Shown here: piece after piece, positions 41,996 through 64,000 of the stretch
How positions within the stretch are numbered: the stretch's first letter is position 1
Layout: each line of letters begins with the position of its first letter
The notes under the pieces: model-generated
The model's database searches: none
Seen by the model: the letters and a program-made list of their open reading frames with translations, nothing else
Told to the model about the DNA's origin: nothing
Assembly: GCA_964651965.1 (NCBI GenBank)
Contig: CAZYZS010000002.1
Location: 17,164 to 81,163 of the forward strand
From: Candidatus Woesearchaeota archaeon
Lineage (GTDB): Archaea; Nanobdellota; Nanobdellia; Pacearchaeales; GW2011-AR1
Reading direction: 5' to 3'
Length of the DNA stretch: 64,000 nucleotides
Program-made: the position numbers and the translations under genes

Positions 41996-43507
41996 ATGAA
42001 AGCCGCCTTAAAAAAAAGTATAGTCAAAAATTCTTTTTGGAGTTTTTGGACTTCTTTTGTAAACAGAGTTGGAGCGTTAGTATTTACAATAATTCTTACG
42101 CGTTTTCTTTTGCCAGAGGGTTTTGGAATCTATTCTATTGTTCTTTCAATAGCAATGATCTTTTACACTTTTACAGAGCTCGGGACAAACAATGCTCTTA
42201 AACGATATGTTTCTTATGCCTTGTCAAGGGAACGTAAAAAAGTTTATTCTTATTATAGTTATCTATTAAGAATCAAATTAACTTTAGCCTTTATAACTTC
42301 CTGCTTTGTTTTTTTGTTGGCTTATCCCATTTCTTATTATATTTTCAAAAATACAGCCCTCTTTGTCCCTCTTTTAGTATCTTCTTTATACATCTTTATA
42401 ATGGCAATAGAGAGTTTTTATGCGAGTATTTTTTATTCAATAGAAAAAACAGAGTTCACCACCCTAAGATATGCCCTGGAACAGATACTCCGCATAGGCT
42501 TTGCCGTTGGAATTTTTATTTTTGTGGCGTCATCAAGCCAGGTAGCTGGCCTTTTTATCACTTTCACCCTTGTTTCATCAATCCTGCTTTTTATGAATCT
42601 TTTTTACCTGAAAAAACTTAGCCCGATAATTTTCATAAAGAACTCTGCAGAAATAGACAAAAGGAGGATAAGAAAATTCATAAATTTTCTTATAATCGCC
42701 TCGGTATCCGGGGTCTTTTTTACATATGTAGATTCTATCCTTCTGGGATTTTTTCTTGAGCCCCAATATGTAGGGTATTATCGTGCAGCTTATTCCCTTG
42801 TACTAGGAGTTGCAGGGATACTTTCATTTTCAACTCCGGTCTTACTTCCTTTTTTTACAAAAATAAACAAGAAAGGAGTTAAATTTCTATTTAATGAGTC
42901 TTTCAGGCTGCTTTCGATAATCCTAGTGCCTTCTGTGTTTGGCTTAATTATCCTTGGAAGATTTTTTGTACGAATGTTTTTCGGTTATCCATTCCTGCCT
43001 TCTGTTGTATCTTTGCACATCCTTTCTTTTTTGGTCTTCCCAGTTGTTTTCATAAATATGTTCTTATCTCTCTTTTCAGCCAAAGAAAAAACAAATATAT
43101 CGGCAAAGCTGATTATATGCACATCTGTCCTGAATGTTGTCTTAAACCTCGTATTTATCTTACTTTTTTTACGCATCTCCCCAATTTTTGCGACCGTAGG
43201 AGCCGCATTAGCAACCACCATAAGCTGGTTCTTTTATTTTATCGGTTTTGTATATGAGTCTAAGAGAAATATGGGCATAACTGTTCCATTTAAATCCCTG
43301 AGCAAGCCCTTCTTTTCTTCTATTATTATGTCTATATTTTTAATTATAGCGACTAGCCTGATAAAAGATATGAACCTTTTTCTGGGAATTTTCGTGGTCC
43401 TAGCCGCAGCAGCAGTTTATCTTATAGTCTTGATTATGCTTAAAGGAATTACAATAAAAGATTTAAACCTACTAAAAATCCTTGTTAGTAATGAAAAAAC
43501 TCGCTAA
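41996..43507 (+). CDS. polysaccharide biosynthesis protein / Wzx-like flippase (MOP superfamily)
   Basis: 503 aa with about 12-14 TM helices and a characteristic N-terminus. Confidence 0.7.
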   Translation: MKAALKKSIVKNSFWSFWTSFVNRVGALVFTIILTRFLLPEGFGIYSIVLSIAMIFYTFTELGTNNALKRYVSYALSRERKKVYSYYSYLLRIKLTLAFITSCFVFLLAYPISYYIFKNTALFVPLLVSSLYIFIMAIESFYASIFYSIEKTEFTTLRYALEQILRIGFAVGIFIFVASSSQVAGLFITFTLVSSILLFMNLFYLKKLSPIIFIKNSAEIDKRRIRKFINFLIIASVSGVFFTYVDSILLGFFLEPQYVGYYRAAYSLVLGVAGILSFSTPVLLPFFTKINKKGVKFLFNESFRLLSIILVPSVFGLIILGRFFVRMFFGYPFLPSVVSLHILSFLVFPVVFINMFLSLFSAKEKTNISAKLIICTSVLNVVLNLVFILLFLRISPIFATVGAALATTISWFFYFIGFVYESKRNMGITVPFKSLSKPFFSSIIMSIFLIIATSLIKDMNLFLGIFVVLAAAAVYLIVLIMLKGITIKDLNLLKILVSNEKTR

Positions 43508-43985
43508 GCTAAATCTAGGCTGCGGTAGGGACATTAAAAAGGATTTCATAAACGTAGATTACAAAAAATTCGATGGAGTAGACTTGGTTTATGATCTTAA
43601 TAAGATCCCTTATCCATTTAAAGACAATACTTTTGATGAGATACTACTAAGAAATATTTTAGAGCATCTTGAAAATCCATTAAGTATCTTGAAGGAAGTT
43701 CGCAGGATTTCAAAACCGCATGCAAAAATTTTTATTAAAGCGCCTCATTTTTCAAGCAACAATGCTTGGGGCGATATAGAGCATAAACGGCCCTTTTCTA
43801 GTCAGACCTTCAAAAACGAAAATATTTCTGGCTTTTTTCGTTTAATAAACCAGAGGATAACTTTTTCCCATTTTAGATTTTTTATGAGACCCATCGCAAA
43901 AATAAACCCCCTTTTTTATGAGAAACATCTGGCATTTATTTTCCCGGCAGTCGATGTAGAGGCAGAGCTCGAGGTTATAAAATGA
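43482..43985 (+). CDS. class I SAM-dependent methyltransferase
   Basis: LNLGCGRD...ILLRNILEHL. Confidence 0.65.
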   Translation: MLVMKKLAKLNLGCGRDIKKDFINVDYKKFDGVDLVYDLNKIPYPFKDNTFDEILLRNILEHLENPLSILKEVRRISKPHAKIFIKAPHFSSNNAWGDIEHKRPFSSQTFKNENISGFFRLINQRITFSHFRFFMRPIAKINPLFYEKHLAFIFPAVDVEAELEVIK

Positions 43986-45121
43986 AGCTAGGATACGGGT
44001 TAAGAAAAAACTTTATAGTAATAGAAAATCAGATAAAAAGAGCTTTTAGTTTGTGCCTATTTCTCTCTTGGCTTCTTTTCGACCCCAGCAAATTTAAAAA
44101 AATAAAACCAGAAAAAATAAAAAGTCTCCTCGTAGTTAATATGGGAAAAACAGTTGGCGACTTTTATCTGCTTCTTGGAATGTTAAATAAGCTTAATAAG
44201 AATTATCCAAGAGTAAGAATATATATGTTGTGTCTTGACAAAAATAAAAAATTTGTAAAAAATCCAAATATAAAAGTTTTATCCCTGTCAGAAGCAAAAA
44301 ACCTTATAAAAAAGAAAAAGATAGACTCTTTAATAAACTATACGGTTTTCTTGAAAAATATGCATTATACAAAAATTCCTTATAGAATGGGTCTTGATGA
44401 GGTAAACATCAAGGAAGTATTTAGAAAATGGCAGATGCCGGCTACAAGGAGAATATTCCCCTATAACAAAGGGATAATACGAATGTTCCTATCTTTCGAA
44501 AAACTAGGTTTCTACTTGAATAGGGAGCTTTATTTTTATTTCACAAAAGAATCAGAAAAATATGCAGAAGAATTTTATAAAAAATATAAAAAAGGTAAAG
44601 AAAAGATAATCTTTATTCACCCAGGGAGCGGAAAAGGGGCGAGATCTTCCCAAGAAAAGGGTATTTCTTCAGCTAGCTGGCCCTCTGAAAGATGGGCAAA
44701 GGTTGCAGATAGTTTAATAAAAAGATACAATTCAAAAATTGTTTTTACAGGAGTGGAAAATGAGAAACCCATAATTCAAGAGATTATCTCTAAAATAAAG
44801 AATAAGAAAAAGGCCTTAGATGCGCCTTCAAATTTATCAGTAGAGGAGGAAGCCTCTTTGCTTAAAAGAGGCGACTTATTGGTAACCATCGATACTGCAA
44901 CAGCCCATATAGGCGCCCAAGCAGGGATTCCTCTTATAGACCTATTTGGTCCCTACCAACCAATAATTGCCATGCCTTGGACAGATAAAAAGTCAATTCT
45001 TTTTCATTCAGAAGTCTGTAGCGGGTGCAAGAAAAATATATGCCCGGAAGGCTTTCCTCAATGCATGGAATCCATAACTGTAAAAGAGGTTCTAAGAGCG
45101 GCCTCTAATTATTTGAAATAA
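43982..45121 (+). CDS. glycosyltransferase family 9 (heptosyltransferase-like)
   Basis: IIFIHPGSGKGARS...WPSERWAKVADSL...TIDTATAHIGAQAGIPLIDLFGP. Confidence 0.7.
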   Translation: MKLGYGLRKNFIVIENQIKRAFSLCLFLSWLLFDPSKFKKIKPEKIKSLLVVNMGKTVGDFYLLLGMLNKLNKNYPRVRIYMLCLDKNKKFVKNPNIKVLSLSEAKNLIKKKKIDSLINYTVFLKNMHYTKIPYRMGLDEVNIKEVFRKWQMPATRRIFPYNKGIIRMFLSFEKLGFYLNRELYFYFTKESEKYAEEFYKKYKKGKEKIIFIHPGSGKGARSSQEKGISSASWPSERWAKVADSLIKRYNSKIVFTGVENEKPIIQEIISKIKNKKKALDAPSNLSVEEEASLLKRGDLLVTIDTATAHIGAQAGIPLIDLFGPYQPIIAMPWTDKKSILFHSEVCSGCKKNICPEGFPQCMESITVKEVLRAASNYLK

Positions 45122-45169: not shown

Positions 45170-46669
45170 ATGAGCCTAAAAATGGAGGAATTATCCCCCG
45201 ACTTAGCAGAAAAATATGCCTGTCAAGCAGGGGAAGAATTTGTACTGGCCATGAACGAAGGGAAGTTACTTTTTGATAGAATAGAACTTCTTTCAGAGTT
45301 AGCATTCCATCAAAATAAAAAAGTTTCTGACAAGGTGCTAGAACCTCTGTTTGGGACTCTTATACACGGATTAAGAAATAGCTTTAAAAAAAGAGAGGGA
45401 GACGCATATCTGAGAATTTTCCCTTATTTTGTTTTAGCCGCAAGGGAGCAGTCAGAAATAGTTAAAGATTGGTTTAAAAAAATGGAAATTTCAGAGTCAG
45501 ACCCCTTAGACGATCTCTACAAAAAGAGTCTCGAATTAAGGGCGCAGAAAAAACAGTTAACTCAGAGCGAAATCAACAAAATAAAAAAAATAATCATATT
45601 ATCAAGAGGCACCATCGGAGCAGAAATACTGGCGGCGGGAGTATTATTTCCTCCGCTAATAGAACATTTTAAGGAAGCAGAGCTAATATTTGTAGACTCT
45701 TGTGGGGCAGGTAATCAGATCTTTAACCATCCTAGAATAAAGCTAGTGGATAAATTTGTCAATAAAGATGGCGAGGAGTTAAGCTTGAAGTGGAGTAGAA
45801 AGAGCCTTCCAATTCTAGAGCGACTCGAATATCCTGCAATATTATCTGAGTTTATCTCTATCGAAACAAATAACCTTAGTCCAGAGGAATATATAATTAT
45901 AGATGCAGACACTCGCCTTTCGCAAACAGGCGCCATGCCGCTTTCAAAAAATAATCATTATTTTATAGATACGGTTGCAGAAAGGGATGATTATGAAGAT
46001 AATAGGAGTATCGCCACTATTTGCAGCGATTATATCGGTCAGCTCCTAAATGCTCCAAGTATTCATTATCCGCAAATTTATCTTTCAGAAGGGGATAAAA
46101 AAATTGCACAAGACACCTGGAACTGTTTGGGGTTTAATAGAAGAAAGATAGTACTGGTAAGCTTCACTTCGGGGTTTGAATCAAAGACGCTCTCACCTAA
46201 TTTTGAGAAGAGACTCATTAACAAATTAATCGAATTAGGGATTACACCTTTAATCGAAAGGTCTCCAGATATCAACGAGGACAAGAAAAATGTAGGGCTG
46301 GTTAATTACATGAAGGAAAATGGGAAAGAAGTAATTGAGATTGATTTGAACAAACCTTTAAATCTTTTAGACAACAAAACTGAAGCGGCTATTTATACTT
46401 TTCAATCAAAGGTAGGCCCTCTGGCTGCTCTAATCGAAAAAAGCAATCTGGTCATAAGCTATGACTCAAAAAATCAGCACATTTCAGCTGCACTTTCCAC
46501 CCCATTCATCACCATTTTCACCGGGCATATAAATAACCTTTTTTTAAAGCGCTGGACTCCTATCTCAAAAAATTTCTCCAGGATAGTTGAAGTACAGAAA
46601 AAAGGTAACTACGAAGATGAAGCACTAAAAAATACAGAGGCTTGCTTGAAAGAATTTTTTCGCCCCTAA
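45170..46669 (+). CDS. GT9-like C-terminal domain with a roughly 300-aa N-terminal extension
   Basis: The C-terminal part reads ...LAALIEKSNLVISYDSKNQHISAALSTPFITIFTGH. Confidence 0.45.
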   Translation: MSLKMEELSPDLAEKYACQAGEEFVLAMNEGKLLFDRIELLSELAFHQNKKVSDKVLEPLFGTLIHGLRNSFKKREGDAYLRIFPYFVLAAREQSEIVKDWFKKMEISESDPLDDLYKKSLELRAQKKQLTQSEINKIKKIIILSRGTIGAEILAAGVLFPPLIEHFKEAELIFVDSCGAGNQIFNHPRIKLVDKFVNKDGEELSLKWSRKSLPILERLEYPAILSEFISIETNNLSPEEYIIIDADTRLSQTGAMPLSKNNHYFIDTVAERDDYEDNRSIATICSDYIGQLLNAPSIHYPQIYLSEGDKKIAQDTWNCLGFNRRKIVLVSFTSGFESKTLSPNFEKRLINKLIELGITPLIERSPDINEDKKNVGLVNYMKENGKEVIEIDLNKPLNLLDNKTEAAIYTFQSKVGPLAALIEKSNLVISYDSKNQHISAALSTPFITIFTGHINNLFLKRWTPISKNFSRIVEVQKKGNYEDEALKNTEACLKEFFRP

Positions 46670-46720: not shown

Positions 46721-47431
46721 ATGGGCATTACTCCAATCACCTTTAAATTTGAGAGAGAACTTTTTGAGTCTTTAAATATTAATTATAAAGGTCTAGAGTT
46801 GTGCGAGTTAGGTAATCAGAGATTGGCATTTAAAAAAATGACTGGAAAGCAGTACTACACTTCGTTAGGTGTTAAACATACTTCTATAGATTTAAACAAT
46901 AAAGATGGCGCTTTACCATTAAACTTAGATTTGCCATTGCCTTCAAGTTTTCTTAATAAGTTTAAAGTAGTTACTGATTATGGAACGAGCGAACATGTAA
47001 ATAATCAGCACTCTGTTTTTAAAAATGTCCATGATATATGCAAAGATAAAGGAATTATGATACATGTTCTTCCTTCTATAAATTCGCCGCAAGGCAGAAG
47101 CGAGAGGTATTATTATTCAAAAGAGTTTATGAGAGAGCTGGCTAGAAAATGCAAATATGAAATACTTAACCTAGAAACCTATAAGGAAGCTCCCGAGTCT
47201 CAAAATTCAAGCGAGGCCATTCGCGCGGTTTTTATGAAGACAAGAGGGGGCCCTTTTATTTCCAAAAAGGAGTTTTATAGCATAAAAGGACTTAAAGACA
47301 GCGGCAACATGCTGTATACTGGGAATTACGAGAAGAAGCTCCTTCCATGGGTTATCTGGTATGTTAGAGTATTAAAAAATCCGCGGAACATAAAAAGAAA
47401 ACTTTCGAGTATATTTTTTAAGAATAAATAA
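46721..47431 (+). CDS. hypothetical protein
   Basis: 236-aa ORF inside the glycan locus. Confidence 0.35.
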   Translation: MGITPITFKFERELFESLNINYKGLELCELGNQRLAFKKMTGKQYYTSLGVKHTSIDLNNKDGALPLNLDLPLPSSFLNKFKVVTDYGTSEHVNNQHSVFKNVHDICKDKGIMIHVLPSINSPQGRSERYYYSKEFMRELARKCKYEILNLETYKEAPESQNSSEAIRAVFMKTRGGPFISKKEFYSIKGLKDSGNMLYTGNYEKKLLPWVIWYVRVLKNPRNIKRKLSSIFFKNK

Positions 47432-47434
47432 GCA

Positions 47435-47926
47435 CTATTTAATAACTCTTAATTGGGCGTCTACTTTGGATATAAGCCCCCCTATAAACAAGGATAATTT
47501 TTCCCTCATGCTTTTCGGCAGGAATTTTCCTATCTTGGTAGGTCTAAGAACAATCTTTACAACCTCAAATTTTCTTTTTTTATGTATCAAGTAAGGTTCT
47601 TTAGCAAAATTTATGAAAGCGACTTCTGAAAAATAATGCAAATGAGTCAGGTCATCGTACGCCCCTTTATTATTATAATGCGGAACAACTATCTGAATTA
47701 TTGCGTTTTTCTTGCATGCTTTCCATAATTCAAAAAGGACCCCTTCTGGTTTTTCCAAATGCTCTAGAACATTGTCTATATAAACAAAATCGTAGTAATT
47801 TTCTTTAAGGGGGTATGGGAATTTATTAAAGTCAAAATTTTTATTAATCTTCTCGCTTTTTTGTAGGTCTACATTATCCCATCCTTCCTTTATATCTTCT
47901 CCACATCCAAAATTAAGCTTGTTCAT
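47435..47926 (-). CDS. class I SAM-dependent methyltransferase, paralog of 43482..43985
   Basis: MNKLNFGCGEDIKEGWDNVD...IDNVLEHLEKP. Confidence 0.65.
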   Translation of the reverse strand: MNKLNFGCGEDIKEGWDNVDLQKSEKINKNFDFNKFPYPLKENYYDFVYIDNVLEHLEKPEGVLFELWKACKKNAIIQIVVPHYNNKGAYDDLTHLHYFSEVAFINFAKEPYLIHKKRKFEVVKIVLRPTKIGKFLPKSMREKLSLFIGGLISKVDAQLRVIK

Positions 47927-49936: not shown

Positions 49937-49939
49937 TCT

Positions 49940-56181: not shown

Positions 56182-56818
56182 TCCTTTTAGCTCTTATAAT
56201 TATCTGTCTCCCAATCCTGTGCTTTAAAAATCTTATTTTTTCTATTTTAAAACCTTCTTGTCCGAGTATTCTTTTTAACTCTCGAAGAGAGTATTGGTAT
56301 ATTTTATATCCAGTAATCCTTGTTATCCTTTGATAAAAATAAGCAACTATCTTCCTTATCAGATTCTTCTCTTCAGCATCAAAAATAAGATAGCCCTGTT
56401 TTTTGAGAACTCTTCTTGCTTGTCTTATCGCTCTTCTTAAGTCTTTTTCCTGAAGATGATTCCATACCCTCATCGTTACAACTTTATCAAAGCTTTCAGG
56501 CTTAGACTTAAGGTTGAACATATCTCCAGGTATGCATTTAGCTTTTGGATTTTTCTTGCTCGCTATTTCAAGCATGCCTTCAGAGGTATCTATTGCAGTA
56601 ACTTCCCCAAGGTACTCTGTTAAAAAGCCGCTGCTGCATCCTAGCTCAAGAACCTTTTCTTTGTCTTTTTTATCAATAAGTTCTAGAAAATACTTTAATT
56701 CCAATACCCTTTTTCTTCTTCTATATTCACTTTTTTGCCTCTGTGCGTCGTAGGTGCCCGTTACTCGCTTTTGTTGATAGTACTCCTTAAATTTATCAGT
56801 ATCGCTTTTAACATTCAT
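56174..56818 (-). CDS. class I SAM-dependent methyltransferase
   Basis: VLELGCSSGF...AIDTSEGML. Confidence 0.65.
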   Translation of the reverse strand: MNVKSDTDKFKEYYQQKRVTGTYDAQRQKSEYRRRKRVLELKYFLELIDKKDKEKVLELGCSSGFLTEYLGEVTAIDTSEGMLEIASKKNPKAKCIPGDMFNLKSKPESFDKVVTMRVWNHLQEKDLRRAIRQARRVLKKQGYLIFDAEEKNLIRKIVAYFYQRITRITGYKIYQYSLRELKRILGQEGFKIEKIRFLKHRIGRQIIIRAKRID

Positions 56819-58080: not shown

Positions 58081-59606
58081 AAATAACTTTAATTTCTACC
58101 TCTACCTTTCCTTCTGATCAAGGAATAAGGACAATTTCAGCTGTTTTAAAAAAAGCAGGGCATAAAGTTAATCTGGTTTTTATGGCCTTGAGTGAAGATT
58201 ACTCCAAAAACTACACAGAATACGAGTTGCAGCAACTTGAGAAAATAGCAGAAGGAAGCAGGCTTATCGGCATAGCTTCTTATGCTTCAACTGCAAAAAG
58301 GGCAGAAAGAATAATAACCTATCTCAAAAGATTAAATGTTCCTATTGTTTATGGAGGGGTACATCCAACAATCTCGCCAGAACAAGCAATAACTATTTCA
58401 GATATAGCTTGTGTCGGAGAGGGAGAAGAAGCAATTATAGAACTGGCTTTTTCAATAGAAAAAAACAAGCCCTTCGATAAAATAAAAAACCTCTGGATCA
58501 AAAAAGGGGATAAAATTATAAAAAATCCTATAAGGAATTTAATAGAGAACGTTGATTCTTTACCTTTTCCTGATTTTGATATTGAAGACCATTACATTCT
58601 TGAAAAAGGGAATCTAAGAAAGTTCAGAGAAGAAGATTTGGGCGGAGGGATTTTCTTTCTTACAGGAAGGGGCTGCCCTTACGGATGCGATTATTGCTCC
58701 AATTCTTTTTTTAATCAGCTTTATAAAGGAAAGTGCAAAAAAATCTTAAGGCTTCATTCTCCAGAATACATCATAAAGGGAATCTTATATATGAAGAATA
58801 AATTTCCTAGCTTAAGTTATTTTGATATCAGAGACGATACTTTTTCAATGAGGCCGTTAGAGGAGATTAAGAAATTCTGTGAAATGTACAAAAAACAGGT
58901 CCATCTCCGATTTAAGTGTTTGGGAGACCCTAAAACAATAACAGATGAAAAAATTAAGCTGCTTGTTGATGCTGGGTGCACAGACATTATTATTGGGATA
59001 CAGGGAAGCGAATCTACTAACCATTTAATTTATCATAGGAATCAGACAGACGAGGGAGTTTTAAACGCTGCCAAAATTCTAAATAAATACAGGCAATTAG
59101 CAGTAATGTACGATGTTATAACTTCTAATCCTTATGAAACTCCAGAACAGATAATAAGCCTTATCCGTTTGCTACAGAAGATTCCAAGGCCCTATTATCT
59201 TTCTGTAAATAATCTTGTCTTCTTTCCAGGAACTCAATTATACAGGAGAGCAATGCAGGACGGAACAATCAAGACAGAAAAAGATACTGCCCAATATCTA
59301 AATTATTGGGACAGAAGCAAGCACATCCTTCTCAAAGGAAAAAACATCTATCTCAATCTTATCCTCAATATTATGAGAGGCCCAGCAACCGATAAAAGAT
59401 TTGGATTAATGCCAAGTTTCTTACTAAACTGGCTTTTAGAAGAAGAAAGAGTTAAAAGAAATCTGAAAAACCAGTTTCCCGCTATAACAGCAACGCGCCT
59501 CCTTTATATTTTTGACTTAATAAGAGAAAGAATTTTAAAACCTGCTTTTAGAAGCATGCCTCTTTCCTTTAAAGTCTGGTATGATAAAGTTAGGTATCAT
59601 GTGTAA
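58077..59606 (+). CDS. B12-binding radical SAM protein (class B)
   Basis: N-terminal B12-binding Rossmann-like domain, then GRGCPYGCDYCS (Cx3Cx2C-like). Confidence 0.75.
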   Translation: MKITLISTSTFPSDQGIRTISAVLKKAGHKVNLVFMALSEDYSKNYTEYELQQLEKIAEGSRLIGIASYASTAKRAERIITYLKRLNVPIVYGGVHPTISPEQAITISDIACVGEGEEAIIELAFSIEKNKPFDKIKNLWIKKGDKIIKNPIRNLIENVDSLPFPDFDIEDHYILEKGNLRKFREEDLGGGIFFLTGRGCPYGCDYCSNSFFNQLYKGKCKKILRLHSPEYIIKGILYMKNKFPSLSYFDIRDDTFSMRPLEEIKKFCEMYKKQVHLRFKCLGDPKTITDEKIKLLVDAGCTDIIIGIQGSESTNHLIYHRNQTDEGVLNAAKILNKYRQLAVMYDVITSNPYETPEQIISLIRLLQKIPRPYYLSVNNLVFFPGTQLYRRAMQDGTIKTEKDTAQYLNYWDRSKHILLKGKNIYLNLILNIMRGPATDKRFGLMPSFLLNWLLEEERVKRNLKNQFPAITATRLLYIFDLIRERILKPAFRSMPLSFKVWYDKVRYHV

Positions 59607-59642: not shown

Positions 59643-60404
59643 ATGGTAAAGTCTTATGAAAAGTTTAATAAACGGCTAGGAGAAGAATATTGGGGGAAGT
59701 TTGTAAAAAGAGATATCCAACTTTATGATTGTATTAAAAAAATATTAAGTAAGTACTTATCCGGCAAAAACAATGTTAAGGGACTGGATATCGGCGCAGG
59801 TCCAGGAATTGGAGCATGGATCCTCGGTCAATTAGGGATTTCTGGAGAATTATACAGTGTAGAGCCTTCTGATAATTATAAGGAAGGAGAAAAACTGGCC
59901 GAGAAATTAAAGCTGTCAGGAAGCAAAACCCTTTACTATCCCAAAAAAGGGGAGATGTCCGATGCAATTGCTTTATTTGATTTAAAAGAAGAAAGCTTAG
60001 ATTATATATTATTTTTGAGATCAGTTCATGAAATTATGCTTTCATATAAGGATTACAAAGATTTCGTTAAAGACTTTAAAATAATTTGTAGTTTAATTAA
60101 GAAAGAGGGTTTTATAGTTATAGCAGACCCCCAATATTCAGAATTTATCTATTCTGCCCCCCATAAATATGCTAAAATTATACAAGCAATAAGAAAATAT
60201 AAAGAAGAAACATTAGGGCACTCTCATGCCCTAGGAGATTATCTTACTCTTAAAAAGCTGAAAAAAATAATGCCCGAAGATTTTATACTCTCTGAAAAAG
60301 TAGAGATAGAGAATAACAAAGATTTCGAATTTATAAAAAGCAAGGGTTTTAATCTAAAAGAGAGCCCAACTGAATTCTATGTTGTTTGTTATAAGAGAAG
60401 ATGA
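59643..60404 (+). CDS. SAM-dependent methyltransferase
   Basis: GLDIGAGPGIGAW. Confidence 0.6.
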   Translation: MVKSYEKFNKRLGEEYWGKFVKRDIQLYDCIKKILSKYLSGKNNVKGLDIGAGPGIGAWILGQLGISGELYSVEPSDNYKEGEKLAEKLKLSGSKTLYYPKKGEMSDAIALFDLKEESLDYILFLRSVHEIMLSYKDYKDFVKDFKIICSLIKKEGFIVIADPQYSEFIYSAPHKYAKIIQAIRKYKEETLGHSHALGDYLTLKKLKKIMPEDFILSEKVEIENNKDFEFIKSKGFNLKESPTEFYVVCYKRR

Positions 60405-60455
60405 TTCTTCAAAAACTTCCCACAAATTTATAAATTTCAATATCCTTTTATTTTC

Positions 60456-60923
60456 ATGAAATGGAAACTTCCTCCAAAAATAAAGATTTATGAGGCTCTT
60501 GGCTGTATTGGGGATAAAAGAATAGAAATTTCAGGAAATGAAGCGAAAGTTTTCTCCTCTTCAAAAGGAAAATTTTATTCTGTAAGGTATAATGAAAGCA
60601 TGAATGCGATTATGTGCAATGATAATGGCTCTTTCTGGCAAGGCTATTTGGGGTATCCTTCAATTGCTTTCTTGATGTTAAAAGGCAGAATAAAGTTCAA
60701 TCAGGAATCTGCAGAGGCATTTAAAGACATAAAATGGAAGGATTTAAACACCAAGTTCAAGAGGGATTATTGGAAAACAGAAGAGTTTGCCCTGGAAAAA
60801 GCCAAGGAAAAAGGTGCTGATATAAGTAAATTATTAGAAGATATAAACAACATTTTTGAACAAATTAAAAAATTAGATATGAATTTATTTGGAGAAAAAA
60901 CCAAGCCGCCAGAAGAATATTAA
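60456..60923 (+). CDS. hypothetical protein
   Basis: 155-aa ORF, not recognised. Confidence 0.35.
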   Translation: MKWKLPPKIKIYEALGCIGDKRIEISGNEAKVFSSSKGKFYSVRYNESMNAIMCNDNGSFWQGYLGYPSIAFLMLKGRIKFNQESAEAFKDIKWKDLNTKFKRDYWKTEEFALEKAKEKGADISKLLEDINNIFEQIKKLDMNLFGEKTKPPEEY

Positions 60924-61645
60924 GCTTTTCTATAATCTTTCATTTTTTCTTTGTATTTTGTTTTGTCTTTTATGTTTGCCCAATAAAATGCCTCTTGCCG
61001 CAGGCGGCATGCAAGGCAAGTTCCGCAATGCTCTCTTTTGTTCTTTGTTCCAATATAACAACTATAAGTATCTTCCATTTTAACTCCTAATTTTTTTCCC
61101 AATACAGCAATATCCTCTTTATCTTTTTTTATCAATGGAGCAATGATTTTTCCTTTAATTCCCGTGGCTGTTTTTTTAAGTTTGTTTATCTCTTTTACAA
61201 ACTCAAGTGTTGTGTCTGGATATGCTTCTCTTCCCTCGCATTTAAATCCAGTAAAAATATCAAAGATTTCTTTGTTTTTTATCTGTAAGGACTCTGCTAA
61301 AGCCAAGGCATAGGTTAAAAAAACAATGTTTCTGCACGGAACATAATACTTTAGAGACTCTTTTTCTGTATCTTTCAGCTCTTTTCTTTTTATTTTTCTC
61401 ACTTTCTCACTTTTATTTATTAAAGAAGTTGAAATTTTTGCAATTTCATTTAGTTTTATTTCTTTAAACTCTGCTCCGAGCTTTTTTGCTATATTTTTGC
61501 TTGCTTTTCTTTCTTGTTTTAGTGTTCTCTGCTTATAATCAAAGAACAAAATAATCATTTTTTTGTACTTCAGCTTTTTTTTAACATAGTAAGCAGTTGC
61601 ACTGCTATCCAATCCCCCAGAGCACAAAACAATTGCATTTTTCAT
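60920..61645 (-). CDS. queC: 7-cyano-7-deazaguanine synthase QueC-family PP-loop ATPase
   Basis: AIVLCSGGLDSS PP-loop, VPCRN, and a C-terminal CYIGTKNKREHCGTCLACRLR zinc motif. Confidence 0.75.
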   Translation of the reverse strand: MKNAIVLCSGGLDSSATAYYVKKKLKYKKMIILFFDYKQRTLKQERKASKNIAKKLGAEFKEIKLNEIAKISTSLINKSEKVRKIKRKELKDTEKESLKYYVPCRNIVFLTYALALAESLQIKNKEIFDIFTGFKCEGREAYPDTTLEFVKEINKLKKTATGIKGKIIAPLIKKDKEDIAVLGKKLGVKMEDTYSCYIGTKNKREHCGTCLACRLRQEAFYWANIKDKTKYKEKMKDYRKA

Positions 61646-61695
61646 AGGTATTTTAATTCAATAATGTTTTTAAACCCCTCCTTGCTCTCTCATCT

Positions 61696-61890
61696 ATGAA
61701 AAAACAAGCAAAAGACCTAACCAAGGGTGAAAAAATTATACTGGCAGGTCAAACGTGTGTAGTCCAGGATATTGAGATTTCTGAGATAGGAAAACAAGGA
61801 AAAAGAAAAGTAAGAATAGAAGCTTTAACAGAAAAGGGAGAGAAGATTGTTATAATAAGGCCGGAAGATTTTCCTTTTGACATTCCATGA
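61696..61890 (+). CDS. small protein resembling the aIF5A N-terminal SH3-like barrel, lacking the hypusination motif
   Basis: LTKGEKIILAGQTCVVQDIEISEIGKQGKRKVRIEA versus the aIF5A pattern ...G.PC.IVD...SKPGKHGHAKARV. Confidence 0.3.
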   Translation: MKKQAKDLTKGEKIILAGQTCVVQDIEISEIGKQGKRKVRIEALTEKGEKIVIIRPEDFPFDIP

Positions 61891-62803
61891 TTCTTTTAAA
61901 ATGATAGACATAATTATAACTTCGTATAACGAGCCAAAGTCAACTTTAAGAGCAGTAAACACGTTTCTTAAGCAAGAAATTCCAGGAGAGTTTAGAATAG
62001 TCGTATGTGACCCATTTCCAGAAGTTAAAACTTTTCTTAAAGAAAACATCAAAGATAAAAGAGTAGGTTTTTTCCTTGACCCTGGAGAAGGAAAGAGTTA
62101 TGCGTTAAATTTGCTTTTCGAAAAGCTTGCTGGAACAACAAATGATTTTTTCATTTTAACTGACGGAGATGTTTATGTTTCTGATAACACAGTTAAAGAA
62201 ATTCTAAAGGTTTTTGAGGATAAGGAAATAGGGTGTGTTACAGGCCATCCAGCCACAATTGATTCTAGAGAAAATAAATTTGGATATTGGAGTCATTTGT
62301 TATTCTCAGGAGTGCACAGAGCAAGGAAAAAGTATGCAGAAAAAAAAGAATTTTTTGAATGTTCTGGATATTTATTTGCAGTGAGAAAAGGAGTAATTAC
62401 TAGTTTCCCCACAGATGCTTCAGAAGACTCTGTAATCCCTTACTTGTTCTGGCAAAAAGGCTATAAAATAGGTTATGCAGAAAATGCAGAAGTTTACGTT
62501 AAAAATCCAGATAATCTAGAGGACTGGAAAAAACAAAAAATAAGGAATATAAAAGGCCATGAGAATCTTTCCAAATTGTATCCAGATATGCCAAGAACAA
62601 AATCTTTTTGGAACGAAGTAAAACATGGAGCATTTTTTGCTTTATTCTACCCAAGAAAACCAAAAGAGTTTGTCTGGACGATGCAGCTATACAAGGCAAG
62701 ATTAGATATTTACAAAGAAGCTTTTAAAGAGCTAAACCAAAAAGAAGTTTATTCAGATGGCTGGAGAGAAACAGAAATAAATTCAACAAAGCCATTAGAC
62801 TAG
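61877..62803 (+). CDS. glycosyltransferase family 2
   Basis: IIITSYNEPKST...LTDGDVYVSDN. Confidence 0.7.
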   Translation: MTFHDSFKMIDIIITSYNEPKSTLRAVNTFLKQEIPGEFRIVVCDPFPEVKTFLKENIKDKRVGFFLDPGEGKSYALNLLFEKLAGTTNDFFILTDGDVYVSDNTVKEILKVFEDKEIGCVTGHPATIDSRENKFGYWSHLLFSGVHRARKKYAEKKEFFECSGYLFAVRKGVITSFPTDASEDSVIPYLFWQKGYKIGYAENAEVYVKNPDNLEDWKKQKIRNIKGHENLSKLYPDMPRTKSFWNEVKHGAFFALFYPRKPKEFVWTMQLYKARLDIYKEAFKELNQKEVYSDGWRETEINSTKPLD

Positions 62804-63286
62804 TTTTTTTAATTCTTTTTCCAGCTCTTCCAAGCTTGTTACAATTTTTGTTGGACAGATAATTATGGCGCTTAAATACTCTAAGGCATCTTTTACTGGC
62901 TCATCTGTTTTTATGCCTATGGCAGGAATCCCTTTTGCATAAGCATATCCGAGCTCCCAGGCAGTTCCTGCTCCAACATGCAAACCATTTAAGTCAGCAA
63001 TAATCAAGTTACAATCTTTAAATCCCTTAGTAATGTCTCCTTCAAATACTCTTTTAACGTCTTTCATTCCTTTGCACGGCCCAACATCTCTATGGGGAAG
63101 AAAAGTTTCTATACCTAATTTTTCACAAATCTTGTCTATTTTCTCCAAAAACTCCACTTCCGATGCAGTGCATAACTTGCCGGCAATATAGGCTTTCATT
63201 TTATTAGTATATCCTTGTTTAATAAAGCTTAAATAATGTTTATTATAAACTTTACTAAAGATAACTATGGAAATTTTAATAATCAA
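62795..63286 (-). CDS. nucleoside 2-deoxyribosyltransferase-like protein
   Basis: AYIAG......DLNG...DVGTAWELGYAYAKGIPAIGI, a family-typical pattern. Confidence 0.5.
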   Translation of the reverse strand: MIIKISIVIFSKVYNKHYLSFIKQGYTNKMKAYIAGKLCTASEVEFLEKIDKICEKLGIETFLPHRDVGPCKGMKDVKRVFEGDITKGFKDCNLIIADLNGLHVGAGTAWELGYAYAKGIPAIGIKTDEPVKDALEYLSAIIICPTKIVTSLEELEKELKKLV

Positions 63287-64000
63287 GTTAGGGGCAAAAG
63301 GCGATATTGTTAGGACTCTTCCTATAGCTTTAGCTTTAAAGAAAAAATATCCCGATGCAAAAATTTCCTGGTTGACAAAGAGTTCTAATAGGGAGTTTGT
63401 TGAAAACAGCCCTTGTGTAGATTCTGTTTTTGTTTTGCCTTATAATGATAATAAAAAATTTGATGTCCTTTATAATTTTGATATTGACGAAGAAGCTACT
63501 TTATTGGCAAATAAAATTCAAGCAGGAAAAAAATACGGCTTCTATTTCGAGGGGGGATTTGCTGCTGCATTTAATTTAGGAGCAGAGTATTATCTTAACA
63601 CTTTATTTGATGACGAAACTAAAAAAACCAACAAAAAAACTTATCAGGAAATGATGTTTATGGCTGCTGAACTGCCTTACAATAAAGAATTTCATCCAAT
63701 TATCTTAAAAGAAAAAGATAAAAAATATGCTTCTGAGTTTATAAAGAGGAATAGTCTAAAGACCGAGAAACTTGTTGGTATTCATATAGGTTCTTCTCCA
63801 AGATGGCCTTCAAAATTCTGGCCAGTAGAGAAAATTAAAGAATTTGTTTTAAAATCAAAGGAAAATGGATATGAAATCCTGCTTTTTGCAGGTCCTGATG
63901 ATATAGATAAACAGAAGAAAATTGTTTATGATTTAGAGAACCAATTTAAAGTTTATTCCAATGATCCGAAAAATACAGATATGGAATTCGCTTCTTTAGT
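63267..64000 (+). CDS. glycosyltransferase family 9 (heptosyltransferase-like), 3'-truncated by the window end
   Basis: ILIIKLGAKGDIVRTLPIALALKKKYPDAKISWLT, the classic GT9 N-terminus. Confidence 0.65.
   Translation, partial: MEILIIKLGAKGDIVRTLPIALALKKKYPDAKISWLTKSSNREFVENSPCVDSVFVLPYNDNKKFDVLYNFDIDEEATLLANKIQAGKKYGFYFEGGFAAAFNLGAEYYLNTLFDDETKKTNKKTYQEMMFMAAELPYNKEFHPIILKEKDKKYASEFIKRNSLKTEKLVGIHIGSSPRWPSKFWPVEKIKEFVLKSKENGYEILLFAGPDDIDKQKKIVYDLENQFKVYSNDPKNTDMEFASL

What the first reader, a model, noticed from the sequence alone, without database searches (positions are those of the whole stretch)
41996..64000. Surface-glycan biosynthesis locus of at least 22 kb with bacterial LPS-type GT9 heptosyltransferase-like genes and heavy tailoring capacity
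Wzx-like flippase; three GT9-like genes (43982, 45170, 63267), a family typical of bacterial LPS-core heptosyltransferases and rare in archaea; GT2 x2; GT4; DegT aminotransferase; GNAT; carbamoyltransferase; DUF362/ferredoxin; at least five SAM methyltransferases; a radical SAM enzyme and a B12-binding radical SAM enzyme. This predicts an aminated, acetylated, carbamoylated and multiply methylated (possibly C-methylated) glycan, potentially a heptose-containing S-layer or lipid-linked glycan in an archaeon. No nucleotide-sugar synthesis genes were seen in the window.
Basis: partly seen in the sequence, partly recalled or inferred. Interest (0 to 1): 0.65.

Follow-up and report, generated by a model that had tools for sequence, protein, structure and literature searches.

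The report
Archaeal protein-glycosylation gene island with heptosyltransferase-like enzymes
The finding is real: it is the first two thirds of a ~32 kb surface-glycan island of a tiny Pacearchaeota (DPANN) archaeon, which ends just outside the window at the N-glycosylation enzyme AglB, and relatives place ADP-heptose synthesis genes right beside one of its three GT9 genes, so the heptose idea is plausible but unproven for this genome.

Summary
All the listed gene types are present, and the three GT9 calls pass Pfam thresholds. Two were modelled, and their best structural matches are GT9 structures. The contig is archaeal (Pacearchaeota) and was assembled identically in several independent datasets.

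It runs about 9.5 kb past the window: GT9c, a PMT_2-type GT-C enzyme, two GT2s, a deacetylase, a second flippase, an AglH-type GlcNAc-1-P transferase and AglB. It is therefore an AglB-anchored glycosylation island of about 31.6 kb, not an LPS-type locus.

Comparison with about 90 related loci shows two conserved arms around a variable tailoring cassette:
- Left arm: SecDF, a 148-aa membrane protein, Wzx and GT9a.
- Right arm: QueC, a 64-aa ORF, GT2, an NDT-like gene, GT9c and PMT_2, continuing to AglB.

No GT9 here reaches NCBIfam's heptosyltransferase I/II/III cutoffs. However, in 8 of 24 evaluable related loci, ADP-heptose genes (HldE, or HldA-GmhA plus HldC-GmhB) lie within the flanks of the GT9c orthologue. 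GT9c's HepI-type donor and catalytic residues are invariant in 81 orthologues. The window plus 14 kb of extension contains no heptose gene.

Verdict: a new variant of known kinds, of moderate interest.

The parts
39080..41487 (+). SecF (39080-39973) and SecD with a PDZ domain (39976-41487). They form the conserved left anchor of the island.
   Evidence: Pfam SecD_SecF_C. The same position is kept in relatives L011, L013, L014, L015 and L019.
41504..41950 (+). 148-aa membrane protein with two hydrophobic segments. It always lies between SecD and, in most relatives, the Wzx gene. Function unknown.
   Evidence: No Pfam hit above cutoff. It is 36-43% identical to syntenic ORFs in L011, L013 and L015. 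Hydropathy.
41996..43507 (+). Wzx1, a Wzx/RfbX-type lipid-linked oligosaccharide flippase candidate (503 aa).
   Evidence: Polysacc_synt 95 bits. About 14 hydrophobic segments. Syntenic orthologues at 28-42% identity.
43491..43985 (+). Small class I SAM methyltransferase (MT1). Its end overlaps the GT9a start.
   Evidence: Methyltransf_11 35.1 bits against a cutoff of 21.2. Called as 164 aa in public assemblies.
43982..45121 (+). GT9a (379 aa): an N-terminal amphipathic helix followed by a full GT-B GT9 domain. It is part of the lineage-conserved left-arm core.
   Evidence: PF01075 59.8 bits. AF2 model pLDDT 87.4. Best PDB matches are 3TOV, WaaF and WaaC. The GD and D..H motifs are kept, but the Lys192 equivalent is Ala. 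NCBIfam Hep I/II/III scores are below cutoff.
45170..46669 (+). GT9b (499 aa): a very divergent GT9 with a helical N-terminal extension of about 135 aa. It belongs to a rare accessory family.
   Evidence: PF01075 30.3 bits over about 50 residues. Only 6 homologues in 5.8 billion proteins. AF2 pLDDT 80.7, and the best PDB matches are GT9. It has 'GAE' in place of GD, while K339, D432 and H437 are invariant.
46721..47926 (.). Weak methyltransferase-like ORF (46721-47431, +) and small methyltransferase MT3 (47435-47926, -).
   Evidence: Methyltransf_23 18.9 bits, below cutoff. Methyltransf_11 23.5 bits against 21.2.
48069..48860 (+). GT2a glycosyltransferase.
   Evidence: Glycos_transf_2 96.6 bits.
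48857..51513 (-). Amino-sugar block: DegT-type aminotransferase (48857-49936), GNAT acetyltransferase (49940-50473) and radical SAM/SPASM enzyme (50503-51513).
   Evidence: DegT 327.6 bits, Acetyltransf_3 64.9 bits, Radical_SAM 74.8 bits plus SPASM 30.3 bits. The best NCBIfam hit for DegT is PseC, 252 bits against a cutoff of 423.
51853..53511 (+). NodU/CmcH-type O-carbamoyltransferase.
   Evidence: Carbam_trans_N 180 bits and Carbam_trans_C 241 bits. NodU model 152 bits, below its cutoff.
53526..55260 (+). Methyltransferase MT4 (53526-54164) and a DUF362 protein with a 2x[4Fe-4S] ferredoxin domain (54172-55260).
   Evidence: Methyltransf_23 42.7 bits, DUF362 164.6 bits, Fer4 38.8 bits.
55255..56181 (-). 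GT6-like retaining glycosyltransferase of the DXD type (relatives of ABO and BoGT6a).
   Evidence: PF03414 49.2 bits against a cutoff of 25. NF041524 136 bits against 250. Human GTA/GTB at E about 1e-11. DAD and DES motifs are aligned. 1546 representative homologues exist, and 111 of the 150 nearest are DXD type.
56174..56818 (-). Methyltransferase MT5, with a NodS-like weak hit.
   Evidence: Methyltransf_11 74 bits. 63% identical to a syntenic gene in L013.
56929..59606 (+). GT4 glycosyltransferase (to 58080), overlapping by 4 bases (58077-58080) a B12-binding radical SAM enzyme (58077-59606).
   Evidence: Glycos_transf_1 112.5 bits, B12-binding 53.9 bits, Radical_SAM 53.3 bits. All NCBIfam B12-rSAM models are below cutoff. 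31% identical to the B12-rSAM in the L015 phosphonate cassette.
59643..60923 (+). 253-aa methyltransferase-like protein (59643-60404) and a 155-aa UCP014422 protein (60456-60923). Roles unknown.
   Evidence: Methyltransf_23 18.1 bits, below cutoff. PF27709 from precomputed hits.
60920..61890 (.). QueC (60920-61645, -) and a 64-aa IF5A-like_N ORF (61696-61890, +). They are conserved markers at the start of the right arm and probably not glycan enzymes.
   Evidence: QueC 174 bits. IF5A-like_N is a weak hit on the L020 orthologue. QueC is present in 32 of 35 evaluable related loci.
61901..62803 (+). GT2b (300 aa), a conserved member of the right arm.
   Evidence: Glycos_transf_2 50.6 bits. Present in 41 of 46 evaluable related loci.
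62795..63199 (-). 134-aa protein resembling nucleoside 2-deoxyribosyltransferase, divergent from GT9c. Role unknown.
   Evidence: PF05014 49.3 bits. Next to GT9c in 63 of 65 evaluable loci.
63267..64000 (+). GT9c, the first 244 of 332 aa (the gene ends near 64265 in the identical contig L005). It is the canonical GT9 and the best heptosyltransferase candidate.
   Evidence: PF01075 27.9 bits on the fragment. In the alignment to E. coli WaaC, D13, K183 (=K192), D212 (=E222), D255 (=D261) and H260 (=H266) are all present. These residues are invariant in 81 orthologues, with the E222 position always acidic. ADP-heptose genes lie within the flanks in 8 of 24 evaluable loci.

Best explanation
The window holds the first 22 kb of an island of about 31.6 kb, spanning window 41996 to a window-equivalent coordinate of about 73558. 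The island belongs to a Pacearchaeota (DPANN) archaeon and builds a lipid-linked surface glycan that AglB transfers to proteins.

Proposed pathway:
- An AglH/Alg7-type GlcNAc-1-P transferase next to AglB starts the glycan on dolichyl phosphate (inferred).
- Soluble GT2, GT4, GT6 and GT9 enzymes extend it on the cytoplasmic face (inferred).
- Aminotransferase plus GNAT, carbamoyltransferase, deacetylase, four to six methyltransferases and two radical SAM enzymes tailor it (inferred).
- Wzx-type proteins flip it (inferred).
- A small GT2 resembling a polyprenyl-phosphate sugar synthase, together with the PMT_2 GT-C enzyme, adds a sugar outside the membrane (inferred).
- AglB transfers the product to Asn (inferred).

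Shown directly:
- The gene content and the AglB motifs.
- The island has two lineage-conserved arms around a strain-variable tailoring cassette.
- GT9a and GT9c belong to the conserved arms, whereas GT9b is accessory.

GT9c is most likely an ADP-heptose-dependent heptosyltransferase acting on a lipid-linked acceptor. Its orthologues have ADP-heptose synthesis genes within their flanks in a third of evaluable related loci, and it keeps all HepI donor residues. Where this particular genome gets ADP-heptose is unknown.
For: Gene content.

AglB is 936 aa and carries DLD, WWDYG at residue 636 and DIGK. The GPT has the DD and AGYNGLEAG motifs.

Taxon: AglB is 81% identical to a protein of Candidatus Pacearchaeota archaeon RBG_13_36_9. 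A GT9a relative belongs to a Pacearchaeota MAG. The ribosomal protein and RpoD-Fer4 operon is of archaeal type.

Boundaries: SecDF lies on the left. Beyond AglB come SpoIIM, IF-2B and other housekeeping genes.

Conserved arms and variable middle. In evaluable loci, NDT is present in 63 of 65, GT2b in 41 of 46, QueC in 32 of 35 and PMT_2 in 36 of 41.

GT9 fold.

Heptose link in related loci:
- L037: HldA-GmhA fusion (349.6 bits against a cutoff of 345; 213.4 against 209.45) and HldC-GmhB fusion (GmhB 179.4 against 178), between GT9c and PMT_2.
- L043, L046 and L089: HldE (domain II 186-200 bits against 181.5). It directly follows GT9c in L043; in L046 and L089 it lies on the NDT side, 0.8 and 4.3 kb from GT9c.
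- L077: HldA and HldC follow GT9c directly.
- Overall, 8 of 24 loci with at least 3 kb on both flanks carry such genes.
- GT9c active-site residues are invariant in 81 orthologues whether or not heptose genes are nearby.

Precedent: a heptose occurs in the Thermoplasma N-glycan (PMC11407970). Functional NDP-heptose enzymes exist in archaea with no known role (PMC11461863).
Against: - No heptose-pathway gene lies in the 64 kb window or in 14 kb of identical extension.
- No NDP-sugar synthase, dehydratase or epimerase lies in the island, so the substrates of DegT and the others are unexplained.
- All three GT9s score far below the NCBIfam heptosyltransferase I/II/III cutoffs.
- GT9a lacks the Lys192 equivalent, and GT9b has Glu in place of the catalytic Asp.
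- AglB was within 10 kb of GT9c in only 8 of 25 loci with a long enough flank. The link between GT9c and N-glycosylation is therefore physical but loose.
- Two thirds of evaluable loci have no heptose gene nearby.
- Nothing here shows an actual glycan, acceptor or donor.
Confidence: 0.68

Rival explanations
1. The GT9 genes are bacterial LPS-core-type heptosyltransferases, and the locus makes a heptose-containing S-layer or lipid-linked glycan, in the manner of a bacterial O-antigen or LPS cluster.
For: - The GT9 Pfam and structural matches are all to WaaC, WaaF and 3TOV.
- GT9c keeps the HepI residues.
- Heptose cassettes sit next to GT9c orthologues.
- Wzx-type flippases are present.
Against: - NCBIfam equivalog cutoffs for Hep I/II/III are missed by a factor of two to five.
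- No Wzy, Wzz or O-antigen ligase family was hit in any island ORF.
- No lipid A or Kdo machinery was seen.
- The locus ends with an archaeal/eukaryal-type GPT and AglB.
- Base composition is uniform with the archaeal flanks, and the genes are vertically conserved in the lineage. This is therefore not a recently imported bacterial cluster.
Confidence: 0.15
2. There are two separate products. The right arm (GPT, Wzx2, AglB and the nearby GT2s) makes the N-glycan. The conserved GT2b, NDT, GT9c and PMT_2 module, and/or the left arm (Wzx1, GT9a and the variable cassette), makes a different glycoconjugate. This could be a heptosylated glycolipid or lipoglycan, analogous to an LPS core on an archaeal lipid, or an O-linked glycan.
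For: - There are two Wzx-type flippases, and only Wzx1 is conserved; Wzx2 is absent from L018.
- GT9c overlaps PMT_2 by 14 bases, so the two are probably co-translated.
- AglB is often more than 10 kb from GT9c, being within 10 kb in only 8 of 25 loci.
- GT2b has GT21-type (glycolipid synthase-like) weak hits.
- Characterised bacterial GT9 enzymes act on glycolipid acceptors (established knowledge of WaaC and WaaF).
Against: - Only one initiating phosphoglycosyltransferase was seen, and it sits next to AglB.
- No second oligosaccharyltransferase or ligase was detected.
- Contiguity of everything between SecDF and AglB is conserved over relatives with 30-87% identity.
Confidence: 0.25
3. The GT9-like proteins do not use heptose. 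They are GT-B enzymes that use another nucleotide sugar, and the heptose cassettes in relatives serve a different enzyme.
For: - There are no heptose genes in 78 kb of this genome, and two thirds of evaluable relatives lack them nearby.
- GT9a lacks Lys192.
- Scores are below the equivalog cutoffs.
- CAZy GT9 also lists a GlcNAc transferase activity (own knowledge, not tested).
Against: - In L037, L043 and L077 the cassette is inserted between GT9c and PMT_2, immediately after GT9c. In the other loci it lies on the NDT side or elsewhere within the flanks.
- No other GT in those loci is as constant a neighbour.
- GT9c's HepI heptose-contacting residues (K192, D261 and H266 equivalents) are invariant. 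Their roles are taken from bioRxiv 10.1101/2021.06.16.448588.
Confidence: 0.25
4. Artefact: a bacterial contig or a chimeric assembly.
For: GT9, GT6, NodU-like and DegT genes are typical of bacterial glycan clusters. The only hit in the species-representative genome collection was a Flavobacteriales GT9 at 23% identity.
Against: - Independent assemblies spanning both the archaeal flank and the island are 99.99-100% identical.
- GC content and tetranucleotide profile are uniform.
- The ribosomal protein and RpoD operon is archaeal, and AglB is present.
- Synteny is conserved in dozens of related archaeal contigs.
Confidence: 0.01

Closest known systems
aglB-linked N-glycosylation (agl) gene clusters of archaea, such as the Haloferax volcanii agl cluster and its variable second cluster
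   Same: - AglB with a WWDYG motif sits next to an initiating transferase, with GT2 and GT4 enzymes, methyltransferases and a Wzx-like (AglR-like) protein.
- A pair resembling a Dol-P-sugar synthase plus a GT-C enzyme is present.
- Content varies between close relatives, as reported for Haloferax clusters (PMC11407970).
   Different: - The host is a DPANN archaeon.
- The cluster contains three GT9 genes and a GT6, families not among the named Agl enzymes I know of (own knowledge).
- It carries a carbamoyltransferase, DUF362-ferredoxin and two radical SAM enzymes.
- It has a fixed bipartite layout between SecDF and AglB.
- Relatives insert ADP-heptose, phosphonate or sulfation cassettes.
Bacterial LPS-core heptosyltransferases WaaC (HepI), WaaF (HepII) and WaaQ, of CAZy family GT9
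   Same: GT-B fold, PF01075 domain, GD catalytic motif and D..H sugar-binding motif. GT9c also keeps the K192 and E222 equivalents. Orthologues are linked to HldE, GmhA and GmhB.
   Different: - Identity to the PDB structures is 13-22%.
- NCBIfam scores are 35-77 bits against cutoffs of 135-185.
- The host has no Kdo-lipid A acceptor.
- GT9a has an extra N-terminal helix and lacks K192. GT9b has a 135-aa extension and Glu in place of the catalytic Asp.
NDP-heptose biosynthetic enzymes found outside bacteria (Tang et al., Science 2024, as summarised in PMC11461863)
   Same: Related Pacearchaeota loci encode HldE, or split and fused HldA-GmhA and HldC-GmhB proteins. This includes an isomerase/kinase fusion type like one of the subgroups described there.
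   Different: That work left the cellular use of archaeal NDP-heptose open. Here the genes sit next to a GT9 transferase inside a glycosylation island, which suggests the use. The window's own genome segment lacks them.
GT6 family: human ABO transferases, bovine alpha-3-GalT and Bacteroides ovatus BoGT6a
   Same: PF03414 above cutoff. The DXD motif (DAD) and the catalytic Glu in DES are aligned.
   Different: - It lies in an archaeal contig.
- It is the DXD (metal-dependent) type. In 2014 only two bacterial DXD examples were known (PMC3961637). Today's metagenomic relatives are mostly DXD, 111 of 150.
- The donor-specificity residues differ from those of GTA and GTB.

Membership tests
CAZy GT9 / Pfam PF01075 (Glyco_transf_9) | Sequence match above the Pfam gathering score | tested here: met
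   GT9a 59.8 bits, GT9b 30.3 bits and the GT9c fragment 27.9 bits, all against a cutoff of 22. Full-length GT9c carries a precomputed PF01075 hit.
CAZy GT9 / Pfam PF01075 (Glyco_transf_9) | Two-domain GT-B fold closest to solved GT9 structures | tested here: met
   The GT9a model (pLDDT 87.4) best matches 3TOV at E 2e-17 with TM 0.65-0.72, then WaaF and WaaC. The GT9b model (pLDDT 80.7) best matches 3TOV at E 5e-10, then WaaC and WaaF. GT9c was not modelled, but it aligns end to end with 3TOV.
CAZy GT9 / Pfam PF01075 (Glyco_transf_9) | N-terminal catalytic Asp (HepI Asp13, the 'GD' motif) | tested here: inconclusive
   Present in GT9c as D13, invariant in 81 orthologues. Present in GT9a as G59-D60; G59 is invariant and Asp follows in 15 of 19 homologues. 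GT9b has an invariant 'GAE', with Glu152 in its place.
LPS heptosyltransferase I/II/III (NCBIfam equivalogs TIGR02193, TIGR02195, TIGR02201; RfaC, RfaF, RfaQ) | Score above the curated equivalog cutoff | tested here: not met
   GT9a scores 35.4, 74.1 and 52.3 bits against cutoffs of 185.3, 134.6 and 170.2. For GT9b the only hits were RfaQ (NF007742) 28.1 bits against 467 and TIGR02201 21.1 bits against 170.2. GT9c scores 77.4, 61.8 and 71.0 bits.
LPS heptosyltransferase I/II/III (NCBIfam equivalogs TIGR02193, TIGR02195, TIGR02201; RfaC, RfaF, RfaQ) | ADP-heptose-binding residues of HepI (Lys192, Glu222, Asp261, His266) | tested here: met
   Met for GT9c: K183, D212 (Glu in most orthologues), D255 and H260, all invariant in 81 orthologues. 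Residue roles come from bioRxiv 10.1101/2021.06.16.448588. GT9a lacks the Lys, having Ala where most relatives have His. GT9b keeps K339, D432 and H437.
LPS heptosyltransferase I/II/III (NCBIfam equivalogs TIGR02193, TIGR02195, TIGR02201; RfaC, RfaF, RfaQ) | Genome encodes ADP-heptose synthesis (GmhA, HldA/HldE, GmhB, HldC) | tested here: inconclusive
   Not found in the window plus 14 kb of extension (tblastn). Found within the flanks of GT9c orthologues in 8 of 24 evaluable related loci, and next to them in several; some scores are above curated cutoffs. The rest of this genome could not be searched.
LPS heptosyltransferase I/II/III (NCBIfam equivalogs TIGR02193, TIGR02195, TIGR02201; RfaC, RfaF, RfaQ) | Acceptor is the Kdo2-lipid A or LPS inner core | not testable with these tools
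   No lipid A or Kdo genes were seen in the 78 kb. Archaea are not known to make lipid A (own knowledge). The acceptor here is unknown.
Archaeal N-glycosylation (agl) cluster | AglB/STT3 oligosaccharyltransferase with catalytic motifs | tested here: met
   A 936-aa STT3 protein lies about 9.5 kb past the window end on an identical contig. It carries D91-L-D93, WWDYG at 636 and DIGK at 697.
Archaeal N-glycosylation (agl) cluster | Initiating polyprenyl-phosphate sugar-1-P transferase and glycosyltransferases clustered with aglB | tested here: met
   A Glycos_transf_4 protein (339 aa) with DD and AGYNGLEAG motifs is directly adjacent to AglB. GT2 x4, GT4, GT6, GT9 x3, PMT_2 GT-C and two Wzx-type proteins lie within 31.6 kb.
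Archaeal N-glycosylation (agl) cluster | The product is an Asn-linked glycan on surface proteins | not testable with these tools
   This needs glycoproteomics. No culture is known.
Bacterial Wzx/Wzy-dependent O-antigen cluster | Wzy polymerase, Wzz chain-length regulator and WaaL-type ligase accompany Wzx | tested here: not met
   No Pfam family of these kinds was hit by any island ORF. The only multi-spanning membrane proteins are Wzx1, Wzx2, GPT, PMT_2, AglB and the 148-aa protein.
CAZy GT6 | PF03414 match, DXD or NXN motif and catalytic Glu | tested here: met
   49.2 bits against a cutoff of 25. DAD at residues 148-150 and Glu in DES are aligned to human GTA D211-V-D213 and E303. The NCBIfam GT6 subfamily score is 136 bits against 250, below cutoff.

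The most novel reading that the evidence does not exclude
Pacearchaeota carry a vertically conserved GT9 heptosyltransferase (GT9c) that depends on ADP-heptose and is co-translated with a GT-C enzyme. Heptose is therefore a core sugar of their AglB-linked surface glycan, or of an LPS-core-like glycolipid. This would give archaeal NDP-heptose enzymes their first cellular role. Genomes such as this one, which have no cassette beside GT9c, would either encode it elsewhere or depend on ADP-heptose from a partner organism.
Probability: 0.4. Interest if true: 0.7.

Novelty: new variant of a known kind. Interest (0 to 1): 0.55.

Why it matters
DPANN archaea live attached to other cells, and their surface glycans are essentially uncharacterised. 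This island gives a concrete parts list and layout: two conserved arms around a hypervariable tailoring cassette, much like O-antigen loci. That layout could explain strain-specific surfaces.

The physical link between a conserved GT9 enzyme and ADP-heptose genes in relatives offers a testable answer to a question left open in 2024, namely what archaea do with NDP-heptose. It also names the enzyme to assay.

Heptose has been seen chemically in one archaeal N-glycan (Thermoplasma), but I know of no archaeal heptosyltransferase that has been identified. Four literature searches that paired GT9 or heptosyltransferase terms with archaeal terms found none.

Tried and rejected
1. An exact 60-mer search of metagenome contigs to extend the contig found nothing. 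The extension came instead from exact-protein look-ups.
2. A genome-contig scan with GT9a did not find the source genome. It returned only a Flavobacteriales GT9 at 23% identity, so the taxon was inferred from named AglB and GT9 relatives.
3. Bacterial contamination or chimera was rejected.
4. Recent horizontal import of the island was rejected. GC is 0.341 against 0.359, and tetranucleotide correlation is 0.97-0.99 throughout.
5. The DXD-type GT6 was considered as a rarity, on the strength of a 2014 statement that only two bacterial DXD examples were known. This was rejected: 111 of the 150 nearest cluster representatives are DXD type.
6. The STTR5 arginine, which marks promiscuity towards CDP- and UDP-heptose, was looked for in the relatives' HldC domains. 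No clear pattern emerged and it was not pursued.
7. The window's B12 radical SAM enzyme was considered as a Fom3-like phosphonate methyltransferase. It is 31% identical to the one in L015's phosphonate cassette. However, the window ORFs scanned have no PEP mutase hit and no BLAST match to the L015 phosphonate-cassette genes, so its substrate stays open.
8. Literature searches for GT9 or heptosyltransferases in DPANN or archaeal N-glycosylation returned nothing relevant.

Full report

Yes.
- Wzx-type flippase (41996-43507).
- Three PF01075 (GT9) proteins above the gathering score of 22 bits: 43982-45121 at 59.8 bits, 45170-46669 at 30.3 bits, and the truncated 63267-64000 at 27.9 bits.
- Two GT2, one GT4, DegT, GNAT, a two-domain carbamoyltransferase and DUF362 plus ferredoxin.
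- A radical SAM/SPASM enzyme and a B12-binding radical SAM enzyme.
- Four methyltransferases pass a Pfam cutoff, and two more ORFs are only weak.

- A GT6-like gene (55255-56181, minus strand; 49 bits against a cutoff of 25).
- QueC, a 64-aa ORF and a gene resembling nucleoside 2-deoxyribosyltransferase (NDT-like), which have no known glycan role but are conserved members of the right arm. A UCP014422 protein also lies here, although it is rarely retained in relatives.

Contigs from four other public assemblies are 99.99-100% identical to window 38944-64000. GC content and tetranucleotide composition are uniform across the window.

**2. Whose genome is it?**

- The upstream half carries an S13-S4-S11-RpoD (with a 4Fe-4S insert)...L13 operon, a 5S rRNA and tRNAs, one of which ARAGORN reads as abnormal.
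- The AglB found just beyond the window is 81% identical to a protein of 'Candidatus Pacearchaeota archaeon RBG_13_36_9'. Other named relatives are Nanoarchaeota or Nanoarchaeia.
- A GT9a relative belongs to a Pacearchaeota MAG.

The organism is a DPANN archaeon of the Pacearchaeota group. The contamination alternative is excluded.

**3. The locus is larger than the finding.**

Exact-protein look-ups returned contigs identical to the window that extend past base 64000. In order they carry:
- the rest of GT9c (332 aa);
- a 556-aa PMT_2-type GT-C enzyme whose start overlaps the GT9c stop by 14 bases;
- two more GT2s, one of which resembles polyprenyl-phosphate sugar synthases such as PgfS, ArnC, PpgS and AglJ;
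- a NodB-type polysaccharide deacetylase;
- a second Wzx-type protein;
- a Glycos_transf_4 enzyme with the Alg7/AglH-like AGYNGLEAG motif;
- a 936-aa AglB with DLD, WWDYG and DIGK motifs.

Beyond AglB lie SpoIIM, a nucleotidyltransferase, a serine hydrolase and IF-2B, which are housekeeping genes. The island therefore spans window 41996 to about 73558 in window-equivalent coordinates, about 31.6 kb. It is anchored by the N-glycosylation oligosaccharyltransferase. No Wzy, Wzz or O-antigen-ligase family was hit.

**4. Comparative anatomy.**

Contexts of GT9a homologues at 30-87% identity were examined, along with one AglB homologue and 80 metagenomic loci found with a GT9c alignment. They show a fixed layout.
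- The left arm is SecF, SecD, a membrane protein of about 150 aa, Wzx and GT9a. The order is the same in each, apart from short insertions such as a small methyltransferase or, in two loci, a three-gene block.
- The right arm is QueC(-), a 64-aa ORF, GT2b(+), NDT-like(-), GT9c(+) and PMT_2(+). It often continues through GT2c, Wzx2 and GPT to AglB and SpoIIM.
- Among loci with enough flank, the NDT-like gene is next to GT9c in 63 of 65. GT2b is present in 41 of 46, QueC in 32 of 35 and PMT_2 in 36 of 41. AglB lies within 10 kb in 8 of 25.

Between and within the arms the content changes from genome to genome:
- sulfation genes (L011, L083);
- a Fom1/Fom3-like phosphonate cassette (L015);
- sulfatases and a phosphonate-type ABC transporter (L019);
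- epimerases and dehydratases, and various radical SAM enzymes.

The window's DegT, GNAT, radical SAM, carbamoyltransferase, DUF362 and GT6 block is one such variable cassette. GT9a and GT9c are core genes. GT9b is accessory, with only six homologues in 5.8 billion proteins.

**5. Are the GT9s GT9s, and are they heptosyltransferases?**

Family membership holds.
- The AlphaFold models of GT9a (pLDDT 87) and GT9b (pLDDT 81) find GT9 structures as their best PDB matches: 3TOV, WaaF and WaaC, followed in GT9a's list by TibC, which ranks well down GT9b's.
- GT9c aligns end to end with 3TOV and shares HepI's residues Asp13, Lys192, Glu222 (as Asp), Asp261 and His266. Their roles are taken from bioRxiv 10.1101/2021.06.16.448588.
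- GT9a adds an N-terminal amphipathic helix and a C-terminal four-Cys motif. It keeps GD and D..H but has Ala where HepI has Lys192; most of its relatives have His there.
- GT9b has 'GAE' in place of GD and a helical extension of about 135 aa.

Membership of the specific LPS heptosyltransferase equivalogs fails. NCBIfam scores are 21-77 bits against cutoffs of 135-185.

**6. The heptose test.**

In the window plus 14 kb of extension there are none (tblastn). In related loci, however, they sit right beside the GT9c orthologue.
- L037 has the order GT9c, a 531-aa HldA-GmhA fusion, a 318-aa unknown, a 659-aa HldC-GmhB-GSU2086 fusion, then PMT_2. The kinase domain scores 349.6 bits against a cutoff of 345. 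GmhA scores 213.4 against 209.45, and GmhB scores 179.4 against 178.
- L043, L046 and L089 carry bifunctional HldE (437-470 bits; domain II 186-200 against 181.5).
- L077 has HldA, HldC and a GSU2086-family protein between GT9c and PMT_2.

Overall, 11 of 80 loci carry such genes, and 8 of 24 among those with at least 3 kb on both sides. The 81 GT9c orthologues are 50-79% identical. They are invariant at K7, D13, K183, D255 and H260, with one Lys-to-Arg exception at K183. The E222 position is always acidic. This holds whether or not heptose genes are nearby.

GT9c is therefore a single orthologous group genomically coupled to ADP-heptose synthesis. I rate 'GT9c is a heptosyltransferase' at about 0.6. 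I rate 'this organism's glycan contains heptose' somewhat lower, because its ADP-heptose source is unseen.

An HldC-like gene (153 bits against 181.5) also lies next to Wzx1 in the relative L013.

**7. Mechanism, and what is shown versus inferred.**

Shown:
- the gene content and motifs;
- the predicted folds;
- the conserved layout;
- the heptose-gene adjacency in relatives.

Inferred from established knowledge of archaeal N-glycosylation and of the enzyme families:
- GPT starts the glycan on dolichyl phosphate.
- Soluble GTs, including the GT9s, extend it on the cytoplasmic face.
- Tailoring enzymes aminate and acetylate, carbamoylate, de-N-acetylate and methylate it.
- Wzx-type proteins flip it.
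- A GT2 resembling a Dol-P-sugar synthase plus PMT_2 add a sugar outside.
- AglB transfers it to Asn.

The deacetylase, NodS-like methyltransferase and NodU-like carbamoyltransferase trio recalls Nod-factor tailoring. This is an analogy only.

The main rival is that the GT2b, NDT, GT9c and PMT_2 module, or the left arm, makes a separate heptosylated glycolipid or other glycoconjugate. Two flippases and the loose GT9c-AglB distance allow this reading.

**8. Comparison with what is known, and novelty.**

- AglB-linked clusters with strain-variable content are known (PMC11407970).
- A heptose is known chemically in the Thermoplasma N-glycan (same review).
- Functional NDP-heptose enzymes were reported in archaea in 2024 with no known role (PMC11461863).
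- Literature searches found no description of GT9 enzymes in archaeal glycosylation clusters or of this Pacearchaeota island.

I therefore file it as a new variant of known kinds. The window itself is a fairly ordinary, if rich, archaeal glycosylation island. The added value lies in the GT9c-heptose link seen across relatives.

**9. Limits.**

- No donor, acceptor or glycan was observed.
- About 31 kb of the source contig and the rest of the genome were out of reach.
- The synteny counts rest on my own ORF calling and BLAST labels, not on curated annotation.

Noticed in passing
window 55255-56181 (-): A GT6-like glycosyltransferase (ABO/BoGT6a family) with a DXD (DAD) motif and the catalytic Glu, on an archaeal contig. 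Its nearest 150 cluster representatives are mostly DXD type (111 against 33 NXN). The 2014 view that prokaryotic GT6 are nearly all NXN no longer holds in metagenomic data.
   Followed up: yes
window 62795-63199 (-); L021-L100: A 134-aa protein resembling nucleoside 2-deoxyribosyltransferase lies divergently next to GT9c in 63 of 65 evaluable related loci. This adjacency is tighter than for any glycan gene. Its role is unexplained; a link to nucleotides or ADP-sugars is a guess.
   Followed up: partly
L037 13899-15878; L077 12451-13512: A GSU2086-family domain (NF052581, above cutoff) is fused to HldC-GmhB in L037 and adjacent to HldC in L077. It is a candidate extra step in archaeal heptose-nucleotide synthesis. 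Pfam gives only a faint deoxyhypusine-synthase-like hit.
   Followed up: partly
L015 11239-17439: A relative's island carries a phosphonate cassette directly after its GT9a. The cassette comprises a cytidylyltransferase-PEP mutase fusion (Fom1-like architecture), a B12 radical SAM enzyme, a TPP decarboxylase, an Fe-ADH and an aminotransferase. This suggests phosphonate-decorated glycans in some Pacearchaeota.
   Followed up: no
window 41504-41950 (+): A 148-aa protein with two hydrophobic segments lies immediately after SecD in every relative examined, and directly before the Wzx flippase in most. In L013 and the P0022 locus a VTC-CotH-DUF4956 block separates it from Wzx. There is no family assignment beyond a sub-threshold YdjM hit.
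   Followed up: partly
window 61696-61890 (+): A 64-aa ORF is conserved between QueC and GT2b. The orthologue in L020 has a weak IF5A-like_N hit. Function unknown.
   Followed up: partly
window 38121-38963 (+): A free-standing LAGLIDADG endonuclease ORF lies just upstream of tRNA-Gly and SecF. It is present at the same place in L019 but absent in the closer relative L014, which suggests a mobile homing-endonuclease gene.
   Followed up: no
window 27809-27905 (-): ARAGORN reports a 97-nt tRNA with an abnormal 4-base anticodon between RpoD and the L13 region, and Rfam does not call it. It may be an intron-containing archaeal tRNA.
   Followed up: no
window 8389-9330, 14321-15091, 24592-25428: A NUMOD3-motif protein, a serine recombinase and a tyrosine integrase lie among many unassigned ORFs in the first 26 kb. 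These may be remnants of integrated mobile elements.
   Followed up: no
L013 2111-6207; locus of P0022: A VTC, CotH-kinase and DUF4956 triad is inserted between the 148-aa membrane protein and Wzx in two relatives. Its role is unknown.
   Followed up: no
L011 1-3524; L083: Some relatives carry an ATP-sulfurylase fusion and a sulfotransferase-like gene in the variable cassette, implying sulfated glycans.
   Followed up: no
L046 5901-9205; L089 2148-5710: In L089 an intact B12-binding radical SAM gene (694 aa) lies directly upstream of HldE. In L046 the corresponding gene appears split into three ORFs. This hints at radical modification, such as C-methylation, of heptose or its precursors.
   Followed up: no
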